This document shows, in pieces, positions 30,580 through 39,399 of a stretch of DNA of 64,000 nucleotides (its first letter is position 1; the number at the start of each line of letters is the position of its first letter). The DNA is taken from NCBI GenBank assembly GCA_965214775.1, contig OZ243974.1:2752001-2816000 (forward strand), read 5' to 3'. The notes under the pieces are model-generated. The model saw only the letters and a list, made by a program, of their open reading frames with translations, did no database searches and was not told the DNA's origin. Source of the stretch: Nitrosopumilus sp. (GTDB lineage: Archaea > Thermoproteota > Nitrososphaeria > Nitrososphaerales > Nitrosopumilaceae). Made by a program: the position numbers and the translations under genes.

Positions 30580-31120
30580 GCCGGTTTGCCTGCTGCATTT
30601 CAGCTGCCTTTGCCCTCATCCTGTCAACATCAATGGAATGGTATGTGGAAGGAGAGGTTCCCAGTTTATCTAAGGATCTGCCAAGCATTCCTATGGCTAT
30701 CGTCAGATCATTTTTTTGGCCGTGTGCAAATGCTACTGCCAGCAAGATAATTCCCTGGACCAGTTCTTTTTCACGTCCAAAGCATTGCTTCCAGACGCCT
30801 TCAAAGGCCTCATGGCTTTCCCAGAACCGCTCATTGTTGAAATAAAATATGCCGTCTTGGATTCCCTGTTCTTTGTCAATCTCTTCAAGTACAACATGAC
30901 GGACGTCGTAAAGGGGCCCAATGGATGCAAGTCTTTCTATCAAGGAGTCCAACTTGTCAGGATCTACAGAAACGTCAAGTTCGACGAATCTTCTAGCTAT
31001 CCTGCAGACTCGAATCGAGGCGTTCATGTCTCCGGCCAGATCGCGGGCCCTGTACACGACCTCCCTAGAGTTCTCAGGTGACAGTTTTTCATTTTTGAGA
31101 TGAAGCATATAGCGTTCCAT
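30560..31120 (-). CDS. DUF309-domain protein
   Basis: FNNERFWESHEAFEGVW...QGII. Confidence 0.85.
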   Translation of the reverse strand: MERYMLHLKNEKLSPENSREVVYRARDLAGDMNASIRVCRIARRFVELDVSVDPDKLDSLIERLASIGPLYDVRHVVLEEIDKEQGIQDGIFYFNNERFWESHEAFEGVWKQCFGREKELVQGIILLAVAFAHGQKNDLTIAIGMLGRSLDKLGTSPSTYHSIDVDRMRAKAAEMQQANRLTLFEI

Positions 31121-31231
31121 GACAGGGTTTCAAAGCAATTTCTTAAATTTCTTGTCTTCAGTGCATTCTTCCCAAAAGTATCACGTCAATATCCTGACTG
31201 GCGTCCAAACGGGGCCGCCGGCAGATCGTAT

Positions 31232-31302
31232 GCCGCTGCTGCCGCTGTTGTTGTTGTTGCTGTTGTTGCTGCTGCTGTTGTTGTTGTTACTACTACTGCT
31301 GC
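31232..31302. repeat. Compound trinucleotide microsatellite (CTG/TTG/CTA)
   Basis: gccgctgctgccgctgttgttgttgttgctgttgttgctgctgctgttgttgttgttactactactgctgc. Confidence 0.9.
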
Positions 31303-31374
31303 AAGCCGGTACTTTTGAAAAGACGACTGCATCCAATCAAGGTTTATATGAAATGTCTGGAGGATTTTGGATAC

Positions 31375-31797
31375 ATGTCCATAATTGAGACCGTTGCAGA
31401 CGTTGACAATACGTTTCTATCAAGAAGAGAGATTACATGTAATTTTGCCGGACTGGCAGGCAAGCTCAAGAGAACAGAGGCAGCAGACATGATTGCCAGA
31501 GAGTTCAAGCTTGACGGCAAGGCAATCATCATCCCAATGAGGCTAAAGACCCATGTTGGAAGACCGGTTGTTACCGGAACCTTTTATGTATATGAAGACG
31601 AGGGGCTGGCAAAAAAACACGTGAATCCGACAATTTTCTCAAGACTGGAAAAAAGCAAGGCAAAAGATGCCAAACCAGAATCCACAGAAGACAAGAGCGG
31701 CTCTGCCGAAGGGGTCACAGAAAAGAAAGGAGGAGGAGAGGAGGAGAAGGAGAAAGAAGGTGAGAAGGAAGACAAGAAGGAGGAGAAGTCCGAATAA
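31375..31797 (+). CDS. rps24e: 30S ribosomal protein S24e with charged C-terminal tail
   Basis: NTFLSRREI, KTHVG, GTFYVYED; directly upstream of S27ae. Confidence 0.9.
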   Translation: MSIIETVADVDNTFLSRREITCNFAGLAGKLKRTEAADMIAREFKLDGKAIIIPMRLKTHVGRPVVTGTFYVYEDEGLAKKHVNPTIFSRLEKSKAKDAKPESTEDKSGSAEGVTEKKGGGEEEKEKEGEKEDKKEEKSE

Positions 31798-31970
31798 TGG
31801 CCGGCAAGAAGGGCTCCAGTCCAAGAATTCACACGTATTTTAAAATAGACGGAGACAAAATTTCACGGCTTAAGAAAATTTGTGCCAGGTGTGGAAAGGG
31901 AGTCTACATGTCAGAACACAAAGACAGACGCGCATGCGGCAAATGTACCGACACGGAATTCATTCAATAA
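31797..31970 (+). CDS. rps27ae: 30S ribosomal protein S27ae
   Basis: MAGKKGSSPRIHTYFKIDGDKISRLKKICARCGKGVYMSEHKDRRACGKCTDTEFIQ (not in the ORF track). Confidence 0.95.
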   Translation: MAGKKGSSPRIHTYFKIDGDKISRLKKICARCGKGVYMSEHKDRRACGKCTDTEFIQ

Positions 31971-31989
31971 GTCAGTCTTCAAAGTCAGC

Positions 31990-32064
31990 AGACTTTATGC
32001 GTAATTACTTGAATGAGATGAATCTGTTTGCAACAATCCTAGTTTTGAACCGATTACGCAGTCT
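31990..32064. mobile_element. 75-bp MITE-like derivative of the ISL2-like IS5
   Basis: Ends AGACTTTATGCGTAAT / CGATTACGCAGTCT resemble the TIRs of 16640-18174. Confidence 0.6.
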
Positions 32065-32173
32065 AGTGCCCGTAGATGCATCTGATCATCAAATGCTTCA
32101 AGAACTTTTGCCAGTCAGCACGGTTCATTGCGCAGGCCGGTATTGCCTTATCGAAACCGCAGGCAGAGGCAGT

Positions 32174-32287
32174 TCATATATGCAGTTTTGATTTTATATT
32201 GGTTATGTCGTTTTCAATCCTCTCGAACCTAGAGTCAAGGCTCTTGTATTGTCTGATGAATTTTTTGTTTCTGTCCAAACCCCACAG
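32174..32287 (-). pseudogene. Possible truncated RelE/ParE-like toxin
   Basis: WGLDRNKKFIRQYKSLDSR... directly after a small acidic ORF. Confidence 0.45.
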
Positions 32288-32290
32288 TTT

Positions 32291-32428
32291 CTAATCACTG
32301 TGCAGCTCTTCAAGCAGTTCATCAAAGGTCACGATTTTTCGATCTTCAGGATGTGCATAAAAATCTTTGATGTCCTTGATTTCTTCATCAGATAACGGAG
32401 GGGATTCTATCTGTTCTGTATCAGACAT
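32291..32428 (-). CDS. Small acidic protein, putative antitoxin
   Basis: MSDTEQIESPPLSDEEIKDIKDFYAHPEDRKIVTFDELLEELHSD. Confidence 0.55.
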   Translation of the reverse strand: MSDTEQIESPPLSDEEIKDIKDFYAHPEDRKIVTFDELLEELHSD

Positions 32429-32472
32429 GTTTCTTGTGTTACTCCATCATAAAAAAAGGATTAGGGTCAAGG

Positions 32473-34158
32473 GGGGTTGTCCAAAAAATTTCCTCAAAAT
32501 GACCGCCAAGCTTATAGACGCTATATGAAATCTTATCAGTATCCTGTGATATACAATTACTGTTGGGCCTGAGAGTCGATATGATCTTACCATGTACAAG
32601 GGTGTCTTATAGACTGACTCGCAACAGCAGGCGGAAAGCAATGTACCGCGCAGACGGTGAATGGGAGATTCCGCTCGGATCAGGCATTTTGATCAAAAAG
32701 GAGGTGATAACATGATCAACGTAGGAATAGACGTACACAAAAAGACATGCGTTGCAGCAGTAAAGGACGACTCTGGCAAGCTGCTAGAGCGATCCAAGTT
32801 TGAGAACAGCGTTTCTACAACAACGAATTTTGCAACAGACCTCAAGGCACAATACCCTGGACAGCTGTCAATCATGACAGTATGCGAGTCTACTGTCACG
32901 CAGAGAAAGTATAAGAGGATGCATCGCTTAGCAACATTGTCCTGATTCGGAACACTGAGCTGGCAAGGGTCCACGGTAGGATTTGGCACGATTTCATATG
33001 GGAGATCATGGGCGTAATACGCCGAAAACAATTTTGATCAGCCGATCCTGGCTATTTCAATGAGTAACGACAGAAAGAACACAGAATACTACCGACTCTA
33101 CGAGCAAAAGCGCAGGCAGGAGAGCCCCCGCAAGAAGAAGGCAAGGAAGAACCTGGGAAAGATCGTGCGCAGGGTGGCCAAGAAGATGGCAGACAAAACG
33201 GGAATCGATGCCAAACTTGCATGGTCTGCCATACGCATTGCGATCCTCAGGATCGAGAACCACCTGTCCTACAGGATCATGGCCACGCATCTGGAGACAA
33301 ATCCGGACGATCTCAGGAGGTGCGGCCTAGACCACACACTCTCCAAGTCCACCATACACAACAGGGTGAAGATGCTCTGGGAAATGGGCAAGGACTTTAT
33401 GGACGAGGTCGTGCTGGCCATGTCAGACGGCAAGCGCATAGCGGACCTGCACGGCGACTCGACGGGGTTTGGCCTCCGCAAGTACAAGAGCTGGCATCAT
33501 GCCAAGTACGGGGAGATGACAGGACACGACTTTGCAAAGCTGCATAGTAGGCGCAGTAGGAGGCAGGATACTGTCATTTGAGGCCACACCTGGCACATCG
33601 GCCGACTCGCCGGAGTTTGCCCGCATGTTTTCCCGCATTCCAAAGGGAGGATACGGCATAGTGGCGCTGGATTCGGCATACGATTCGTACAAAAACTGCG
33701 AGTTGATTGCAAAAAGCGGCCGCGGACCTGCCATAAAGCCGGCAAAGGGAAACGAAAAGCCTTGGCAGGTTCAGCGCCCGGGCCAGGATGCTGCAGTGGC
33801 TGCGCGACAGGCAGACGAATTCTGGCGCGCCTACCACAAGAGGAGCCAGGCAGAGTCCCTGTTCTCGGCAATGAAGGAAAGGACTGGATCCGTCCTGCGC
33901 TCAAAGCTGGACGGAACCATTACAGTCGAGCTGTTCGCTTGCGTGTTGTGCTACAACCTTACGGTATAATTTTTATCATAATTCCGTACTGTTGTTGGAC
34001 TGCAGCAGCACTACCGTAAGGTATGGCCCGCATGGATATTTACGTTGCCTTTTGCGCATGTCCGGCCGAAAATGTCCCGTTCTGCATCTGAATTTACATA
34101 CATACGGGGGCAGACTGGCAGATTATGGCAGCCTCTTGGAAATTTTTTGGACAACCCC
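32473..34158 (+). mobile_element. IS5-family element D, copy 1 (frameshifted transposase 33060-33969), carrying a mini-IS110
   Basis: TIRs GGGGTTGTCCAAAAAATTTCC / GGAAATTTTTTGGACAACCCC; DSTGF, ALDSAYDS, YHKRSQAESLFSAMK. Confidence 0.88.
32614..33005 (+). mobile_element. Internally deleted mini-IS110 (N-terminal DEDD fragment fused to extreme C-terminus)
   Basis: MINVGIDVHKKTCVAAV...VCEST joined to TQRKYKRMHRLATLS; AGA at both junctions. Confidence 0.85.
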
Positions 34159-34396
34159 GGATTGCACAGTCTTTCCAAAAGTAACCCAAAAAACGGCTCC
34201 AAATTCGAAACAATCTAAGATGAGTCACATGCAGATCCATATACTGCCGTCTGCACCATCCCTAATTTGGAATCATCTTGAATACTTCATCTGTAGTGAC
34301 GACTGAAAGTTTTCGAGCACCTATGGCATGAAATATGCAGGAAGACGCTTTTTGATGATCAAAGACTTTCAGCCACCACTATAGGAACTACTGGCA

Positions 34397-34975
34397 TTAT
34401 GGAATTGTAATTTTTAGAGGTTCGATTTCATCCAATCCACGTAGTCCTAAAAACCCTTTGTCAAAAGTATACAATTCGTCACATTGAGAGTCATGTGCTA
34501 TGATGGCGTGTAAAATATCTGCAAACATGACTTGTTTATAGTTGATGCCAACATGATCTGCACTGCACTGTTCATATTTTTTATGAAATCGTTGAGACCC
34601 TATGCTTTTTTCCATTAGTTCCAATCCACGAGCAAGGACATCGTCTAGTCTGGCACTTCCTCCTTTTTCTAGTTTGACGTTTGGCAGCCTCATTATGGTA
34701 CTAGTTGTGGATTGATAAATCTTGCTGGCCTTGTCCTTTACATAGGCGTCTTGTTTTTTTTCTGGAATTCTGATCATCTCTTCTTTATTTTTACTAACAA
34801 GCATGCGAATCACTCCCATCAATTCGGTTAGAGCAAGAATGGAAATCACTCCTGCATATCTGCCCTGTGAGATTCCGTCAATTACCAATTTTGCACGACG
34901 GTGCTGATCGGGTTCCTTTTTTGACCCTATCGTATAAGCAATTATGATGTTGGTGTCTAGGTAGATTTTATCCAT
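34397..34975 (-). CDS. PIN-domain (VapC-like) nuclease
   Basis: IYLDTNII, LTEL, FADILHAIIA, LYTFDKGF. Confidence 0.88.
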   Translation of the reverse strand: MDKIYLDTNIIIAYTIGSKKEPDQHRRAKLVIDGISQGRYAGVISILALTELMGVIRMLVSKNKEEMIRIPEKKQDAYVKDKASKIYQSTTSTIMRLPNVKLEKGGSARLDDVLARGLELMEKSIGSQRFHKKYEQCSADHVGINYKQVMFADILHAIIAHDSQCDELYTFDKGFLGLRGLDEIEPLKITIP

Positions 34976-35433
34976 TACGTGTCCCTCATAGTTCTAACCG
35001 CATCTACGGCATCGACGGCCTGGTCTCCGATCTGGTCTCCGATAATGCCAGAGAGCTGTTTGAATGCGTTGGAGTCAAGTTTTGGAATTTCCTTGAGTCC
35101 TATGAGCCTACAGAGCATTTCGCGGGTATCTCTGTCATTGAATTTGAATTCGCTGACATGTTCTGTTGACTCGATGATTGAGAGATCCGGTGGGCTCGTG
35201 TCGTTATCATATGGTATGACGTCCTTGGAGGGGCTTGCACCGTCATCGTATTGTATGATGTGGTTTGATAGTGTGATGAAGAAAGGCGCCAGGAAGTAGA
35301 TCGGCCGTTCCGGCGGTTTGTCGATCTCATCCAAGTCCTTGGCGCTCATCAGGCTGCCGAGGTGTTGTTTACTTCCAGAACCGCTCATGTGTGTCATAGC
35401 ATCCACATCTGTATCATGCGGGGTGCTGAACAA
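34975..35433 (-). CDS. Hypothetical protein, possible VapB-like partner
   Basis: Stop overlaps the PIN gene start; C-terminal DAVDAVRTMRD. Confidence 0.6.
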   Translation of the reverse strand: MFSTPHDTDVDAMTHMSGSGSKQHLGSLMSAKDLDEIDKPPERPIYFLAPFFITLSNHIIQYDDGASPSKDVIPYDNDTSPPDLSIIESTEHVSEFKFNDRDTREMLCRLIGLKEIPKLDSNAFKQLSGIIGDQIGDQAVDAVDAVRTMRDT

Positions 35434-35848
35434 GGTTTGCAGTCCGCATTCCTACAAGCTCCCTTGTCTCCTTGATTCTGTTGTAGGCATTGAGAAAGTC
35501 AACGGCGGATGCGTCGTCCCGTAAAAATATAGACAGCGAAAAGCCGAAAAATCGCTTGCTGTCATTTGTTATTATCTTGTGCCTGATGTCCAGAGCCACC
35601 AGCGTATGCTCCAATTCATACACGATTCCACTTTTGGCCGACTCGTCCATCTGAAAGAATTTTTCTGTTATTTTGTCATTGAAGGGATGTGTGGCCTGCA
35701 GCTCGACCAGATCTGATTTGCCAAGCGCCACTATGCTGTCCTTTTTTACAAGCCGGGCATATCGGTAGGATGGAGGGTATTCCTTCATTCTTATGTGTTG
35801 AATATTTGCATTGTCCATCAACTTGCAAATGTCGGACTCTTCCAACAA
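35414..35848 (-). CDS. Hypothetical protein
   Basis: 144-aa ORF overlapping the next gene, first of a three-gene unit. Confidence 0.65.
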   Translation of the reverse strand: MLEESDICKLMDNANIQHIRMKEYPPSYRYARLVKKDSIVALGKSDLVELQATHPFNDKITEKFFQMDESAKSGIVYELEHTLVALDIRHKIITNDSKRFFGFSLSIFLRDDASAVDFLNAYNRIKETRELVGMRTANLVQHPA

Positions 35849-36031
35849 GATATGTCGCGTGCGATATTATAAAAGCATATACAACTGAGGGGGGTTGTCC
35901 AAAAAATTTCCTCAAAATGACCGCCAAGCTTATAGACGCTATATGAAATCTTATCAGTATCCTGTAATATACAATTATCGTTGGGCCTGAGAGTCGATGT
36001 GATCTTACCATGTACAAGGGTGTTTTATAGA

Positions 36032-36694
36032 CTGACTCGTAACAGCAGGCGGAAAGCAATATACCGCGTAGACGGTGAATGGGAGATTCCGCCCGGATCA
36101 GGCATTTTGATCAAAAAGGAGGTGATAACATGATCAACTCGGCCACAGCAGTACGAAACGACTCAAGACTTGGTTCTATATATGAAAGGATAAGAAAGAG
36201 ACGAGGATGGCAAAAGGCAAAGATTGTAGTTGCAAGGCACATGCTGGAGATAATCTGGCACATGCTGACCACCGGGGAGGAGTACCGCACTCAGAGCAAG
36301 ACTCTCACGCAGAGAAAGTATAAGAGAATGCATCGCATAGCAACATTGTCCTGATTCGGAACATCACGCTGGCAAGGGTCCACGGTAGGATTAGGTACGA
36401 TTTCATATGGGAGACTGACTCGTAACAGCAGGCGGAAAGCAATATACCGCGTAGACGGTGAATGGGAGATTCCGCCCGGATCAGGCATTTTGATCAAAAA
36501 GGAGGTGATAACATGATCAACTCGGCCACAGCAGTACGAAACGACTCAAGACTTGGTTCTATATATGAAAGGATAAGAAAGAGACGAGGATGGCAAAAGG
36601 CAAAGATTGTAGTTGCAAGGCACATGCTGGAGATAATCTGGCACATGCTGACCACCGGGGAGGAGTACCGCACTCAGAGCAAGACTCTCACGCA
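36032..36694 (+). mobile_element. Head-to-tail tandem of mini-IS110 (383-bp unit plus truncated second unit)
   Basis: Unit 36032-36414 repeats from 36415; ORF MIN joined to the IS110 C-terminus (KAKIVVARHMLEIIWHMLTTGEEY). Confidence 0.88.
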
Positions 36695-37735
36695 TGTTTC
36701 ATATGAAAATTAGTTCCGCCCCTCATTAGTATCCTTCTCCATCCATTTGGGGTCGCTTTTCCTGATCGCTTCTGTGGCCTCCCGGCTCCGGAACGCCATT
36801 CTGGGAGTCTCTGCACGCTTGATGTCAAGCGACCAGTGCGTCCTGTGCTCGTTGTAGAACTCGATGAACTCGTCTACCTTCTCAAAGTGCGTCAGCTCCT
36901 TCTCAAGCGTTCTGAACCACCTCTCCAACTTGCCGTTGGTCTGGGGGTGATGCGGACGCGAGTTGAGCAGGACGATGCTGTGCTCTAGCAGCTCGTTCTC
37001 AAACAGCGTGGGCGTCCAGCTGCCCCTTGGGGTACCGCGCCTGGCTGACGTAAAGCAGCTGCCGTTGTCTGAGAGTATCTGGGCTGGCGTCCCGAACTCT
37101 TTGATGGCCTTGCGCAGCACCAGGACTGCGTTCTCCGAGGTCGCGCGCTCAAAGACGCCAAATCCGGTTATGCACCGCGAGGAATCGTCAAGATATGCCA
37201 CCAGATTGAGTTTTTCTAGGCGTGAATCCTTCATTTCGTGCCAGTCCACGTGCCACATTGCATTGGAGTACTTGCGCTCATAGCGCAGCCACTTGAGCTG
37301 TCTGGGTCTGGCAGGCGAGCCGTCCGTTATTCCCTCGGCCTTCATGATCCTGTATACTGCATGGTAGCTTATCTGCCTGCCTGCGGCCCTCATGCGCAAT
37401 GCCAGCCTCTCCACACCCGACGGCATCCGCGCATATGCGTCAAGGACCGCCTCCACATCCACGGGATCCGTGTCCATGCAGGGCCTTCCTGCCCCGCTCC
37501 GTGGCAGGACTGTGCCGGAGCTGCGGAATCTGGCCCATATCTTCCTGACATACCTGTCGCTGATGCCCAGCTCCCGGGCTATCTGCTTTGCAGGCACGCC
37601 CTTTTTCCTCTGCTTTTCTATGTACCGGAGCGACTTTTCCTCCAATTTTTTCCTCACGTTTTTTGATCGGTACAGCCTAAAATAATCCTTCAAAGTACGC
37701 CTGATCTTAGGCGGAACTAATTTTCGTATGATAGA
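36695..37735 (-). mobile_element. IS481-family element with transposase 36710-37693
   Basis: TIRs TGTTTCATATGAAAATTAGTTCCGCC / GGCGGAACTAATTTTCGTATGATAGA; WHVDW, LSDNGS, PQTNGKLER; no TSD, both flanks truncated. Confidence 0.92.
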
Positions 37736-38531
37736 ATGCTCTGGGAAATGGGCAAGGACTTTATGGACGAGGTCGTGCTGGCCATGTCAGACGGCAAGCG
37801 CATAGCGGACCTGCACGGCGACTCGACGGGGTTTGGCCTCCGCAAGTACAAGAGCTGGCATCATGCCAAGTACGGGGAGATGACAGGACACGACTTTGCA
37901 AAGCTGCATAGTAGGCGCAGTAGGAGGCAGGATACTGTCATTTGAGGCCACACCTGGCACATCGGCCGACTCGCCGGAGTTTGCCCGCATGTTTTCCCGC
38001 ATTCCAAAGGGAGGATACGGCATAGTGGCGCTGGATTCGGCATACGATTCGTACAAAAACTGCGAGTTGATTGCAAAAAGCGGCCGCGGACCTGCCATAA
38101 AGCCGGCAAAGGGAAACGAAAAGCCTTGGCAGGTTCAGCGCCCGGGCTAGGATGCTGCAGTGGATGCGTGACAGGCAGACGAATTCTGGCGCGCCTACCA
38201 CAAGAGGAGCCAGGCAGAGGCCCTGCTCTCGGCAATGAAGGAAAGGACTGGATCCGTCCTGCGCTCAAAGCTGGACGGAACCATTACAGTCGAGCTGTTC
38301 GCTCGCGTGTTGTGCTACAACCTTACGGTATAATTTTTAACATAATTCCGTACTGTTGTTGGACTGCAGCAGCACTACCGTAAGGTATGGCCCGCATGGA
38401 TATTTACGTTGCCTTTTGCGCATGTCCGGCCGAAAATGTCCCGTTCTGCATCTGAATTTGCATACATACGGGGGCAGACTGGCAGATTATGGCAGCCTCT
38501 TGGAAATTTTTTGGACAACCCCGGGTCAAGG

Positions 38532-38673
38532 CAGTAGTTGAAAATGTACTTTTGTTCACCAGAACAGCTGTCTCACGCGGTTCTGGCATGCGGAATCCCA
38601 TGCGTGCAGAGCCGTGGATGGACGGAGGCGCCATCACGCAGGTGCCATGCAAAGTGTACATTTTCAACTACTG
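38532..38673. mobile_element. MITE (142 bp)
   Basis: Perfect 18-bp TIR CAGTAGTTGAAAATGTAC / GTACATTTTCAACTACTG. Confidence 0.85.
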
Positions 38674-38691
38674 TTGAACCGATTACGCAGT

Positions 38692-39399
38692 CTAGTATAG
38701 TTTTTTCTTGCGAAACTTGGAGCTCTTTTCTTCCAATTGGCTAATTTTAGCTAGAAAGTTCGGGTCAATCTTTATTTTTGACAGTGATTCGGCAGATAAT
38801 TTTACAGTATTGCTGTCCAGTGCAACGTTGGTTTTTGGAAGGTTTTTGTCAGACCAGAGCTTCATAGCCTTGTCTTCTAGCCTGTAGTCTCTAAAACCTG
38901 CCGGGAATCGTTTTGTTATGTGATCTAACAGGGTCCGGTCTTTGAAGACAACTTTTGGCTCAAACAACCGCGTCTCATCGCCATACACGTTTTCAAACAG
39001 GTTTCCCGAGACCTCGTCGGAGAGCAGCTCCATCTTTGAGATCTTGCGAATCAGCTCCAGAAAGTGCAGAAACTCGTGTGCCAGGATTGCGTGAATGGTA
39101 CCCTTGAGCCCGTAGGCGACCAAGGGTGCGGAGATTTGAATTACCACCTGAAAACGCTCCTCAAACATTACCGGGATGGTTCTTGCAAACAGAATTCCAA
39201 ACTCGTAGGAATTTGCAGTCGAAGAGGACAGAACCAGCGACGGCTCGACATATGCTGCAGGGTACCTGATTCCAGAAGCCTTTTCGATGCGGTTGATTCC
39301 AGAAACGGCGATTGGAAATCTCCTTGCAGTCAGATCACAGACATCCCGTGGTATGACTCCCTTGTGACATGCGTCTTTTAGGCGGACAAGAGGATCCAA
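38692..39399 (-). CDS. Hypothetical protein with HEXXH motif
   Basis: AILAHEFLH; backbone-like composition. Confidence 0.8.
   Translation of the reverse strand: MDPLVRLKDACHKGVIPRDVCDLTARRFPIAVSGINRIEKASGIRYPAAYVEPSLVLSSSTANSYEFGILFARTIPVMFEERFQVVIQISAPLVAYGLKGTIHAILAHEFLHFLELIRKISKMELLSDEVSGNLFENVYGDETRLFEPKVVFKDRTLLDHITKRFPAGFRDYRLEDKAMKLWSDKNLPKTNVALDSNTVKLSAESLSKIKIDPNFLAKISQLEEKSSKFRKKKLY

What the first reader, a model, noticed from the sequence alone, without database searches (positions are those of the whole stretch)
32614..36694. Mini-IS110 elements with a bridge-RNA-like donor guide and a reconstituted end-to-end junction
Two different internal deletions of one IS110 (32614-33005; 36032-36414) keep both non-coding ends. 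The tandem at 36414/36415 shows the RE-LE junction CATATGGGAGA|CTGACTCG, the expected circle (donor) sequence. The left end contains ATGGGAGA-T-[TCCG..CGGA hairpin]-TCAG: left donor plus core, a stem-loop, then the reverse complement of the right donor CTGA. This matches the established donor-binding-loop layout of IS110 bridge RNAs. Inference: non-autonomous archaeal bridge-RNA cassettes mobilised in trans, with a compact ~100-nt left end. I could not identify a convincing target guide.
Basis: partly seen in the sequence, partly recalled or inferred. Interest (0 to 1): 0.72.

Follow-up and report, generated by a model that had tools for sequence, protein, structure and literature searches.

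The report
Archaeal IS110 mini-elements carrying bridge RNAs

Summary
The repeats, the two different internal deletions and the 383-bp tandem are real. ATGGGAG(A) in the left end does equal the right end, so it is a left donor guide.

Uninterrupted copies of the host IS5-like element read CTTAT-AG^ATCATGGG, so mini-element 1 is 32518-33004 (487 bp) and mini-element 2 is 35936-36413 (478 bp). The core is AG and the non-coding left end is about 194 nt.

That left end encodes a bridge RNA of about 125 nt: a closing stem plus two stem/internal-loop/hairpin modules. All four guides were found by covariation with flanks and ends:
- RTG: 32581-87
- RDG: 32637-40
- LDG: 32661-67

Its TCCG..CGGA "hairpin" is one strand of the donor-loop stem.

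Guide order (top-strand complement first), the 10-bp subterminal inverted repeats and the GL-P motif are IS1111-like. The position upstream of the transposase gene is IS110-like.

Three intact 1336-bp copies exist in the genome. Guide-predicted 12-mers occur 12-60 times against about 0.3 expected, at the ends of other repeats.

The tandem junction joins the right end to the LTG-coding DNA. A reciprocal "solo left end" exists elsewhere, which suggests half-site recombination. This last point is inference.

Verdict: a new member of a known kind.

The parts
32473..34158 (+). Host IS5-like element, copy 1. It has 21-bp terminal inverted repeats at 32473-93 and 34138-58 and split DDE_Tnp_1 ORFs at 33060-33969. 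It carries mini-element 1.
   Evidence: Inverted repeat I2, 100% complementary. Pfam DDE_Tnp_1 3.4e-10. Uninterrupted copies exist elsewhere in the genome.
32511..32517 (+). Left target plus core of the insertion site (CTTAT-AG). The right target ATCAT follows the element at 33005-33009.
   Evidence: Empty sites read CTTATAG^ATCAT. The 12-mer occurs 17 times in the genome against about 0.34 expected.
32518..33004 (+). Mini-element 1 (487 bp, deletion type m1). It runs from the left end ACGCTATATG... to the right end ...CATATGGG-AG. The boundary is ambiguous within the shared AGA.
   Evidence: Empty-site comparison. Multi-copy alignment. Three genome copies share the same deletion junction and length.
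32523..32532 (+). Left subterminal inverted repeat ATATGAAATC. Its partner GATTTCATAT lies at 32990-32999.
   Evidence: Read directly. Compensated in homologs: TATACGAAAT/ATTTCGTAT and TATATCAAAT/ATTTGATAT.
32567..32685 (+). Bridge RNA core of mini-element 1. It is a closing stem P1 (32567-72 with 32680-85) around the target-binding and donor-binding modules.
   Evidence: CM hits of 96.5 bits (R1) and 113.3 bits (R2). On A4, 21 of 27 pairs show changes on both sides and 86.8% of cells pair, against 74.4% in shuffles (0/500 reach it).
32581..32587 (+). Right target guide ATGATCT, the reverse complement of core AG plus ATCAT. It is on the 5' side of the target loop.
   Evidence: 7/7 match to the right junction. 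Permutation test: 101/119 against a mean of 64.8, 0/20000.
32606..32612 (+). Left target guide CTTATAG, identical to left target plus core. It is on the 3' side of the target loop.
   Evidence: LT/LTG identity across genome copies: 108/125 variable positions against 53 in permutations, 0/20000.
32637..32640 (+). Right donor guide AGCA. It pairs with left-end positions 2-5 (CGCT), 3 of 4 in this family.
   Evidence: Covariation in 14 elements: 49/56 against 27.1, 0/20000.
32661..32667 (+). Left donor guide ATGGGAG, identical to the right end 32998-33004 (left donor plus core).
   Evidence: It changes together with the right end in homologs.
32712..32945 (+). Remnant transposase ORF of mini-element 1: N-terminal ~60 codons fused to the last ~15 codons.
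   Evidence: The full-length protein is 359 aa from MINVGID.
35891..35935 (+). Left end of host IS5-like copy 2, up to the same CTTAT-AG target.
   Evidence: Direct repeat D3, 96% identity.
35936..36413 (+). Mini-element 2 (478 bp, deletion type m2). Bridge RNA with flanks (R2 hit) 35980-36110; core P1 to P1 35985-36103. RTG GTGATCT 35999-36005, LTG TTTATAG 36024-30, RDG 36055-58, LDG 36079-85.
   Evidence: CM hits of 99.8 and 119 bits. Coordinates. The same deletion junction is found at four loci.
36414..36694 (+). Second tandem unit. It starts just after the LTG position (A-CTGACTCG), has the donor module but no target module or left terminus, and is cut at 36694.
   Evidence: Repeat D2, 100% identity, period 383. 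The CM hit at 36369-36479 scores only 55.3 bits, with the target module broken. It is the only such junction in the genome.
36699..37731 (-). Separate IS with an rve integrase (327 aa) and 22-bp inverted repeats. It truncates the tandem unit.
   Evidence: Repeat I4. Pfam rve 2.3e-13. The same left junction occurs at a second genome locus.

Best explanation
The window holds two non-autonomous derivatives of a 1336-bp IS110-family insertion sequence of an archaeal genome. Both sit in the same 12-bp site (CTTAT-AG-ATCAT) of two copies of an IS5-like element.

Each derivative keeps the full ~194-nt left end. That end encodes a bridge (seek) RNA of about 125 nt. A closing stem holds two modules, each made of an outer stem, an internal loop and a hairpin.

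- In the first module the 5' strand of the loop (RTG) is complementary to the top strand of core plus right target. The 3' strand (LTG) is identical to left target plus core, so it pairs with the bottom strand.
- In the second module the 5' strand (RDG) pairs with bases 2-5 of the element's left end. The 3' strand (LDG) equals the right end plus core.

With transposase supplied in trans by the intact copies, the RNA would bridge the abutted ends of an excised circle to the target and recombine at the AG core.

Shown by computation: the boundaries, the core, the structure, all four guide/DNA correspondences and the over-representation of predicted targets. Inferred: expression of the RNA, circle formation and trans-mobilisation.

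The 383-bp tandem most likely arose because the DNA encoding the LTG is by construction a copy of left target plus core. It is therefore a half-site that recombined with the right-end junction.
For: Boundaries and core:
- Empty host sites define the insertion.
- All 18 aligned copies share the ~96 nt upstream of CTGACTCG, while 10 complete copies have 8 different right flanks.
- Empty sites TCAGT-AG-TTCCG (12 copies), compared with filled junctions TCAGT-AG|ACGC and ATGGG-AG|TTCC, fix the core as AG.

Transposase:
- Three open 376-aa frames exist in the genome.
- Pfam DEDD_Tnp_IS110 3.3e-28 and Transposase_20 5.8e-21.
- NCBIfam NF033542 'IS110 family RNA-guided transposase', 245.5 bits against a cut-off of 140.

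Guides:
- LT/LTG in the genome's own copies: 108/125 matches against a permutation mean of 53, 0/20000.
- RT/RTG in 17 elements: 101/119 against 64.8 (maximum 87), 0/20000.
- RD/RDG in 14 elements: 49/56 against 27.1, 0/20000.
- The LDG changes with the right end in three variants.

Structure:
- A1: 89.7% of cells paired against 73.4%, 13/21 pairs with double changes, slid controls 33-46%.
- A4: 21/27 pairs with double changes, and P1 6/6.

Targets: predicted 12-mers occur 17, 12, 14 and 60 times against about 0.34 expected, at the ends of other repeats.

Mini-elements:
- Each deletion type has the same junction in every copy.
- m1 has 3 copies at 2 kinds of site, and m2 has 4 copies at 3 kinds of site (flanks).
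- Two different mini-elements occupy the same host site.

Half-site reading of the tandem:
- The junction lies exactly at AG-A after the LTG.
- One reciprocal solo left end exists...GTGT TCAGT-AG|TTCCG, with a perfect right target.
- Half-match recombination is reported for IS621 in the preprint 10.64898/2026.08.31.748434; I read its sections 7 and 8.
Against: - No RNA data: no RNA run is listed, so expression and RNA ends are unknown.
- No RE|LE head-to-tail (circle-type) junction is present in the assembly (0 hits).
- Folding of the single sequence is not better than shuffles (z -0.75). The structure rests on covariation, and the alignments A2 and A4 were fitted to the model.
- The RDG pairs only 3 of 4 in this family, and the bases next to the core are unpaired.
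- The RTG register relative to the hairpin shifts by +/-1 between homologs.
- Two complete copies (genome 2751227 and 2634798) have right flanks that match their RTG poorly, 3/7 and 4/7.
- Two left ends have LT/LTG matches of only 3-4 of 7.
- The predicted perfect 12-mers for the two m2 guide sets occur 0 times in the genome.
- Homolog boundaries were located by requiring LT to resemble LTG and LD to equal LDG. Those two correspondences are therefore independent only in the window's own genome.
- The tandem could also come from slippage on the 3-nt AGA.
Confidence: 0.85

Rival explanations
1. The elements start at CTGACTCG (32614 and 36032) and have a ~100-nt left end. Its donor loop is ATGGGAGA, then a hairpin, then TCAG. 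The tandem preserves the true circle junction.
For: The tandem junction and the 8-nt identity with the right end are real. TCAG is the reverse complement of CTGA.
Against: Empty host sites place the left end at 32518. Homology continues upstream in all 18 aligned copies. TCAGGC pairs with GCCTGA, with 6/6 covarying pairs. The proposed hairpin has a 2-nt loop and is absent from homologs. The RDG covaries at another place. CTGACTC is the 3' strand of the target-module stem.
Confidence: 0.03
2. The bridge-RNA reading holds, but the 383-bp tandem and the solo left end come from replication slippage or illegitimate recombination on short homology, not from the recombinase.
For: The two sites share only AGA. 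There is one tandem and one solo left end in the genome. The region is heavily rearranged by other insertion sequences.
Against: Both products break exactly at the core after the LTG. The solo left end is joined to a perfect 5/5 right target for its own RTG. A 3-nt homology offers many other possible breakpoints in 383 bp.
Confidence: 0.35
3. The ~96-nt segment upstream of CTGACTCG is a separate small mobile element that makes an 8-bp target duplication, which would explain why 'LTG' equals the left flank. The IS110 element then always inserts beside it.
For: The solo copy at genome 1348669 is flanked by TCAGTAG on both sides.
Against: In filled host sites the second copy of the 7-mer is internal and is followed by the rest of the element, not by host DNA. 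A second block inside the segment is the reverse complement of the right flank and covaries with it. The segment forms covarying stems with downstream sequence. It is never found apart from the element, except for that one solo copy and truncated fragments.
Confidence: 0.02

Closest known systems
IS621 / IS110-group bridge RNA (Durrant et al. 2024, PMC11208160; passages read)
   Same: A DEDD recombinase, with a non-coding RNA encoded in the left end upstream of the gene. The RNA has two internal loops, one for the target and one for the donor, and each reads one strand on each side of a 2-nt core included in the pairings. The left guides are 7-9 nt and the right guides shorter.
   Different: [quoted passage not shown] Here the 5' side pairs with the top strand, so each module is a circular permutation. 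The core is AG (TG in distant relatives) rather than CT. The subterminal inverted repeats are 10 bp rather than 2-3 bp. The host is an archaeon.
IS1111-type seekRNA: ISEc11, ISKpn4, ISPa11 (Siddiquee et al. 2024, PMC11187229; abstract, section 6 and passages read)
   Same: [quoted passage not shown] Subterminal inverted repeats are present. The transposase has a GL-P----S(G/A) motif. Natural reprogramming is seen between relatives.
   Different: [quoted passage not shown] Here it is upstream, which the paper notes for only a few members such as ISMtsp17. I ran no phylogeny against ISfinder members.
ISPpu9 / ssr9 modular circles (Pares-Guillen et al. 2025, PMC12288879; abstract only)
   Same: Parts of an IS110-family element can form separate circles, and an RNA-only module spreads using the transposase in trans.
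   Different: There the modules are bounded by repeated boxes, and Ssr9 was not needed for transposition. Here the mini-elements keep both true ends, and the sub-element is bounded by guide-coding DNA.
Half-match recombination of IS621 (Xie et al. 2026 preprint, 10.64898/2026.08.31.748434; abstract and sections 7-8 read)
   Same: A site matching only the core and one arm of a loop can recombine. The tandem and the solo left end here have exactly that geometry (left target plus core only).
   Different: That work is cell-free and in E. coli, with other half-sites. Here there are only genomic footprints, and the half-site is the element's own guide gene.

Membership tests
IS110 family (sensu lato), bridge-RNA-guided | DEDD_Tnp_IS110 (PF01548) plus Transposase_20 (PF02371) recombinase | tested here: met
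   The full-length copy (L009:650-1729) scores 3.3e-28 and 5.8e-21 and NF033542 245.5 bits against a cut-off of 140. The window's two copies keep only ORF remnants.
IS110 family (sensu lato), bridge-RNA-guided | A non-coding RNA with two loops whose strands covary with the target flanks and the element ends | tested here: met
   The permutation tests for LT/LTG, RT/RTG and RD/RDG all gave 0/20000. The LDG changes with the right end.
IS110 family (sensu lato), bridge-RNA-guided | A 2-nt core shared by donor and target, with no further target duplication | tested here: met
   Comparison of empty and filled sites gives AG.
IS110 family (sensu lato), bridge-RNA-guided | A circular intermediate with abutted ends | not testable with these tools
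   There are 0 RE|LE junctions in the assembly. The public contigs were too fragmented to tell.
IS110 family (sensu lato), bridge-RNA-guided | The RNA is expressed and required for transposition | not testable with these tools
   No RNA run is listed.
IS1111 group | Subterminal inverted repeats of 7-17 bp | tested here: met
   ATATGAAATC / GATTTCATAT, 10 bp, compensated in homologs. The definition is from PMC11208160.
IS1111 group | The long non-coding region / bridge RNA lies downstream of the transposase gene | tested here: not met
   The RNA lies upstream (32567-32685, before the ATG at 32712). The right end after the stop codon is only about 60 nt.
IS1111 group | The top-strand complement lies 5' of the bottom-strand match in the guide RNA | tested here: met
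   RTG 32581-87 precedes LTG 32606-12, and RDG precedes LDG. The rule is from PMC11187229.
IS1111 group | A GL-P----S(t)G motif in the C-terminal domain | tested here: inconclusive
   The genome's own copies read GLTPSRRDSA (SA rather than SG). Of the 17 homolog loci examined, 13 carry a G.-P----S(G/A) match: 10 GL-P----SG, 2 GL-P----SA and 1 GV-P----SA. No tree against ISfinder members was made.
IS110 group (IS621-like) | [quoted passage not shown] | tested here: not met
   The order is reversed in both loops.
Non-autonomous derivative (MITE-like) of an IS | No transposase, both ends kept, the same deletion junction at different sites, and an autonomous copy in the genome | tested here: met
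   m1 has 3 copies at 2 kinds of site and m2 has 4 copies at 3 kinds of site. There are 3 intact full-length copies.

The most novel reading that the evidence does not exclude
The DNA that encodes a bridge RNA's left target guide is unavoidably a copy of 'left target plus core'. Every element therefore carries a built-in half-site for its own recombinase. In this archaeal genome that half-site has recombined with the right-end junction. The result is a tandem of the sub-element in the window and a solo left end joined to a perfect right target elsewhere in the genome. These would be natural footprints of half-match recombination. It would also be a route by which guide-only or guide-less fragments of RNA-guided transposons arise.
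Probability: 0.45. Interest if true: 0.65.

Novelty: new member of a known kind. Interest (0 to 1): 0.48.

Why it matters
- It gives a fully annotated bridge RNA for an archaeal IS110-family clade: four guides, the core and a three-helix architecture. The transposase has relatives in 54 of 301 genomes of the class searched. That tally counts the window's own genome and one unpublished genome on which nothing here rests.
- The clade mixes IS1111-type features (guide order, inverted repeats) with an IS110-type position of the RNA gene. That bears on how the two groups diverged.
- One genome holds about 30 copies of the RNA gene with at least six guide sets aimed at the ends of other mobile elements. 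It also holds transposase-less mini-elements that carry their own guides. This is a natural experiment in reprogramming and in guide-only parasitism.
- If the tandem and the solo left end are recombinase products, they are field evidence for half-site recombination, which matters for the off-target behaviour of bridge editors.

Tried and rejected
- Rfam 15 at E<=1 over 31000-39000 gave only a chance miRNA hit. No curated family covers this RNA.
- RNA evidence: no RNA holder is listed. Four runs of one study hold the stretch as contigs. Laid on 35850-36760, the pieces are 53-162 nt long within the stretch. None bridges the tandem junction with 31 nt on both sides, and no joints were reported. 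This neither confirms nor disputes the tandem or a circle.
- MFE folding of the single sequence gave z -0.75. It is not informative, although the centroid contains the proposed helices.
- RNAalifold on the MAFFT alignment A1 recovered only the target module, because the donor-module 3' strand is shifted by 1 nt in some rows. I therefore gave the structure by hand and re-aligned with covariance models. Those alignments lean towards the model.
- The second subfamily in the genome (left end about 67% identical) could not be used for right-end tests. The copy followed beyond its left end (genome 403766) is interrupted by a ~93-bp repeat and truncated, and none of its relatives matches it beyond about 380 nt.
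- I first read the core as GA and looked for the RDG as the reverse complement of GACGCT, without success. The full-length copies and the empty sites showed the core to be AG, and homologs showed the RDG register.
- I considered an antisense transcript. It does not restore the IS621 order either (by reasoning only).
- A simple longest-helix score for P1 was noisy, with a diagonal mean of 6.7 against 5.9 off the diagonal. It was replaced by the model-based count.
- Rows dropped before the LT/LTG test: genome 1269605, 1802388 and 369540, because of mis-set or truncated left ends. One pair (2033038) was added by hand after an alignment slip. The L045 RDG was set by hand to ATCA.
- L037, L043, L044, L047, L048 and L052-L060 were not used in the guide tables, because they have no clear ends or are truncated. 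L042 has no right end in the locus.
- Supplementary files of the papers were not seen. They may hold predicted bridge RNAs for archaeal or ISfinder elements related to this one.

Full report
**What is in the sequence.** 36029-36311 is repeated exactly at 36412-36694 with period 383. Copy 1 keeps about 60 N-terminal and 15 C-terminal codons of an IS110-type transposase. Copy 2 keeps 3 N-terminal and about 72 C-terminal codons. The observation as such is therefore real.

**The boundaries are different.** The window is part of a 2.83-Mb single-contig genome, which was laid for scripts.
- An alignment of 18 copies shows that homology does not stop at CTGACTCG. It runs on about 96 nt upstream, to ...AG|ACGCTATATGAAATC in 16 of the 18; two diverged copies are unclear. 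The right flanks of 10 complete copies fall into 8 different sequences.
- The repeats found in the window already began at 32470 (D3). That is because both copies sit inside an IS5-like element with 21-bp inverted repeats at 32473-93 and 34138-58 and a DDE_Tnp_1 ORF.
- Six uninterrupted copies of that host element read (c/a/g)ttataga^tcat..., four of them aagcttataga^tcatgggcg, joining window 32518 directly to 33006.
- The inserted segment is therefore 487 bp (32518-33004, ambiguous within the shared AGA) for copy 1 and 478 bp (35936-36413) for copy 2. The non-coding left end is about 194 nt, not about 100 nt.

**Full-length element.**
- Three copies of 1336 bp have open 376-aa frames, at genome 2030287(+), 2746645(+) and 2751227(-). 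The last two lie 1-5 kb before the window.
- The protein has DEDD_Tnp_IS110 and Transposase_20 domains. It scores 245.5 bits on NCBIfam NF033542, 'IS110 family RNA-guided transposase', against a cut-off of 140.

**The core is AG.**
- Full-length copies read TCAGT-AG|ACGC... on the left and ...ATGGG-AG|TTCC on the right.
- The sequence TCAGTAGTTCCG occurs 12 times in the genome as an empty site.
- Host empty sites read CTTAT-AG-ATCAT.

**Guides in the genome's own copies.**
Its five variable bases equal the five bases left of the element in most copies: CTTAT, TTTAT, CAAAC, TCAGT, CTTAC, and GTATG or GTAAG in a second subfamily.
- Of 18 left ends of the main family, 10 match 7/7 (one of them read by eye after an alignment slip), 6 match 6/7 and 2 match 3-4/7. 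Of 7 usable left ends of the second subfamily, 3 match 7/7 and 4 match 6/7. Three rows were dropped for mis-set ends.
- In total 108 of 125 variable positions agree, against 53 on permutation (0/20000). With unique pairs only, 69/85 agree against 36. This is the left target guide.
- A second variable block 25 nt upstream is the reverse complement of core plus right flank. For mini 1, ATGATCT matches AG-ATCAT 7/7. For the full-length class, CGGAACT matches AG-TTCC(G).

**Homologs.**
- The transposase has relatives at E<=1e-30 in 54 of 301 genomes of the class. That tally includes the window's own genome and one unpublished genome, G283, which I did not use.
- In 13 loci from other genomes (37-55% protein identity) the same layout is present.
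- RT/RTG agreement over 17 elements is 101/119, against a permutation mean of 64.8 and a maximum of 87 (0/20000). Targets were permuted within core classes, and a register of +/-1 was allowed both for the observed data and for the permutations.
- The left donor guide changes with the right end: ATGGGAG, ATGGATG and ATGAGTG. The core changes from AG to TG in the distant loci.
- The right donor guide is the first four bases of the 5' strand of the second loop. It pairs with left-end positions 2-5: AGUG/CACT, AGUA/TACT, AGCA/TGCT, GGCA/TGCC, AACG/CGTT, AAAG/CTTT and AAGG/CCTT. Over 14 elements 49/56 positions agree against 27.1 (0/20000). The L045 register was set by hand.
- In the window's family the RDG is AGCA against CGCT, 3 of 4.
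- Caveat: in the homologs I located the ends by LT resembling LTG and LD equalling LDG. Only RT/RTG and RD/RDG are independent tests there. The subterminal inverted repeats give separate support for those ends.

**Structure.**
- Four helices (an outer and an inner stem for each module) given by hand on a MAFFT alignment of 15 sequences pair in 89.7% of cells, against 73.4% in shuffles (0/500). 13 of 21 pairs change on both sides. Slid controls give 33-46%.
- A fifth helix, P1, closes the RNA: GCCTGA at 32567-72 pairs with TCAGGC at 32680-85. On a model-fitted alignment of 29 hits, all six P1 pairs show double changes. Overall 21 of 27 pairs do, with 86.8% paired against 74.4%. That alignment leans towards the model.
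- The single-sequence fold is not special (z -0.75), although its centroid shows these helices.
- The covariance model finds two complete RNA genes in the window (32566-32678 and 35984-36096). It also finds a weak third hit across the tandem junction, where the target module is destroyed. It finds 30 hits in the genome, including the sequences it was built from.

- ATGGGAG(A) is the left donor guide, as proposed.
- TCAG is part of the P1 3' strand.
- TCCG is part of TTCCGC(T/C), the 3' strand of the donor-module stem that pairs with GGCGGAA. A TCCG-NN-CGGA hairpin would have a 2-nt loop.
- CTGACTC is the 3' strand of the target-module outer stem.
- The 'flank' TATAGA is the left target guide.

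**Targets.**
- The 12-mers predicted from LTG plus RTG are far over-represented, with about 0.34 expected for each.
- CTTATAGATCAT occurs 17 times: 4 in the left end of the IS5-like host and 13 in another repeat.
- TCAGTAGTTCCG occurs 12 times, at the end of a repeat.
- GTATGAGTTTAC occurs 14 times and GTAAGAGTTTAC 60 times, at the ends of small repeats.
- The perfect 12-mers for the two m2 guide sets occur 0 times. Their actual sites differ by one base per arm.
- Aiming at the termini of other mobile elements is known behaviour for this family. The Durrant paper's reference list cites IS4321/IS5075; I did not read that paper.

**Mini-elements.**
- Type m1 has the same deletion junction and length at three loci: two in host copies and one at an unrelated site with CTTAT-AG-ATCGG.
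- Type m2 has the same junction at four loci of three site kinds, and it carries two different guide sets (TTTAT/GTGATCT and CAAAC/TTAATCT).
- In the window, two different mini-elements occupy the same site of two host copies.
- Together with the intact copies, this makes trans-mobilisation and guide turnover after the deletions likely. It is not shown.

**The tandem.**
- The junction ATGGG-AG-A|CTGACTC joins the right end to the base after the LTG, 96 nt inside the element. It is the only such junction in the genome. There is no RE|LE head-to-tail junction.
- One reciprocal product exists at genome 1348669(-). It is a left end running through its LTG TCAGT-AG and then directly into TTCCGATTG, the perfect right target for its own RTG.
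- LTG-coding DNA is a copy of left target plus core. Recombination between it and the right junction (left donor, core, right target) gives exactly these two products, whether by unequal exchange or by excision and re-entry of a sub-circle.
- Recombination at sites matching the core and a single arm has been reported for IS621 (preprint 10.64898/2026.08.31.748434, sections 7-8). That work stresses donor arms for excision, so the fit is by analogy only.
- Slippage on AGA cannot be excluded.
- The second unit is cut at 36694 by an rve-type IS. The same IS/element junction occurs at genome ~1123747, where the element continues after a 15-bp repeat. In the window the far side is host-element interior (37736 equals 33372), so a further rearrangement happened.

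**Comparison with known systems.**
[quoted passage not shown] Here the order is reversed in both loops.
- Siddiquee et al. report exactly this reversed order for IS1111-type seekRNAs. They also report long subterminal inverted repeats, a GL-P----S(t)G motif and a non-coding region that is usually downstream, with a few upstream exceptions.
- The present clade has the IS1111-type order, a 10-bp inverted repeat and GLTPSRRDSA in its own copies. Of the 17 homolog loci examined, 13 carry a match to the motif: 10 GL-P----SG, 2 GL-P----SA and 1 GV-P----SA. The RNA, however, lies upstream of the transposase gene.
- Archaeal IS110 recombinases are known (662 in Vaysset et al., passages read). I found no description of their bridge RNAs.
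- Two searches of the held library found nothing on this: 'Nitrososphaera' with 'IS110' gave 2 unrelated papers, and 'bridge RNA' with 'archaea' and 'non-autonomous' gave 0. Supplements were not visible.
- From genome size and gene content I suspect a soil or hot-spring ammonia-oxidising archaeon. This rests on recall, not on a call.

**Verdict.** This is an ordinary kind of system (an IS110-family bridge RNA), here fully resolved in an archaeal clade. Two natural-history points are worth following up: guide-carrying mini-elements, and possible half-site recombination at the guide gene itself.

Noticed in passing
window 32473-38524: Two direct copies of the IS5-like element (32473-34158 and 35891 to about 38524) bracket 34159-35890. 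That stretch holds three minus-strand ORFs (34397-34975, 34975-35433, 35414-35848) with no NCBIfam family. The layout looks like a composite transposon.
   Followed up: partly
window 33060-33969: The IS5-like transposase is split into two overlapping ORFs of 173 and 145 aa. Only the second hits DDE_Tnp_1. This is either a frameshift or a decayed gene.
   Followed up: no
window 36699-37731; genome ~1122700-1123750: An rve-integrase IS with 22-bp inverted repeats sits at the same position of an m2 mini-element at two loci. At the other locus it is flanked by a 15-bp direct repeat (CAAGACTCTCACGCA). In the window its far side is joined to host-element interior (37736 equals 33372), which implies an IS-mediated deletion or exchange.
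   Followed up: partly
genome 403766, 834796, 1100775, 1191334, 2075125, 2666050 and others (outside the window): A second subfamily of the same IS has a left end about 67% identical, with LTG GTATG or GTAAG and RTG GTAAACT. No copy with a right end was found, yet its predicted target occurs 74 times at the ends of small repeats.
   Followed up: partly
genome 2746645-2747980 (about 4 kb before the window): This otherwise intact full-length copy has a changed core at its right end (ATGGGTG) and Gly-to-Val in the conserved GL-P motif (YAVLTP). It may be inactive.
   Followed up: no
window 32687-32690 and 36105-36108: A T4 run follows the closing stem and precedes the GGAGGTGA ribosome-binding site. 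It may mark the 3' end of the RNA. A TATA-like CTATATGA lies inside the left subterminal repeat, about 45 nt before P1.
   Followed up: no
window 31228-31296: A (GCT/GTT)n low-complexity tract gives overlapping poly-Leu, poly-Ala-Val and poly-Asn-Ser reading frames just upstream of ribosomal-protein-like ORFs.
   Followed up: no
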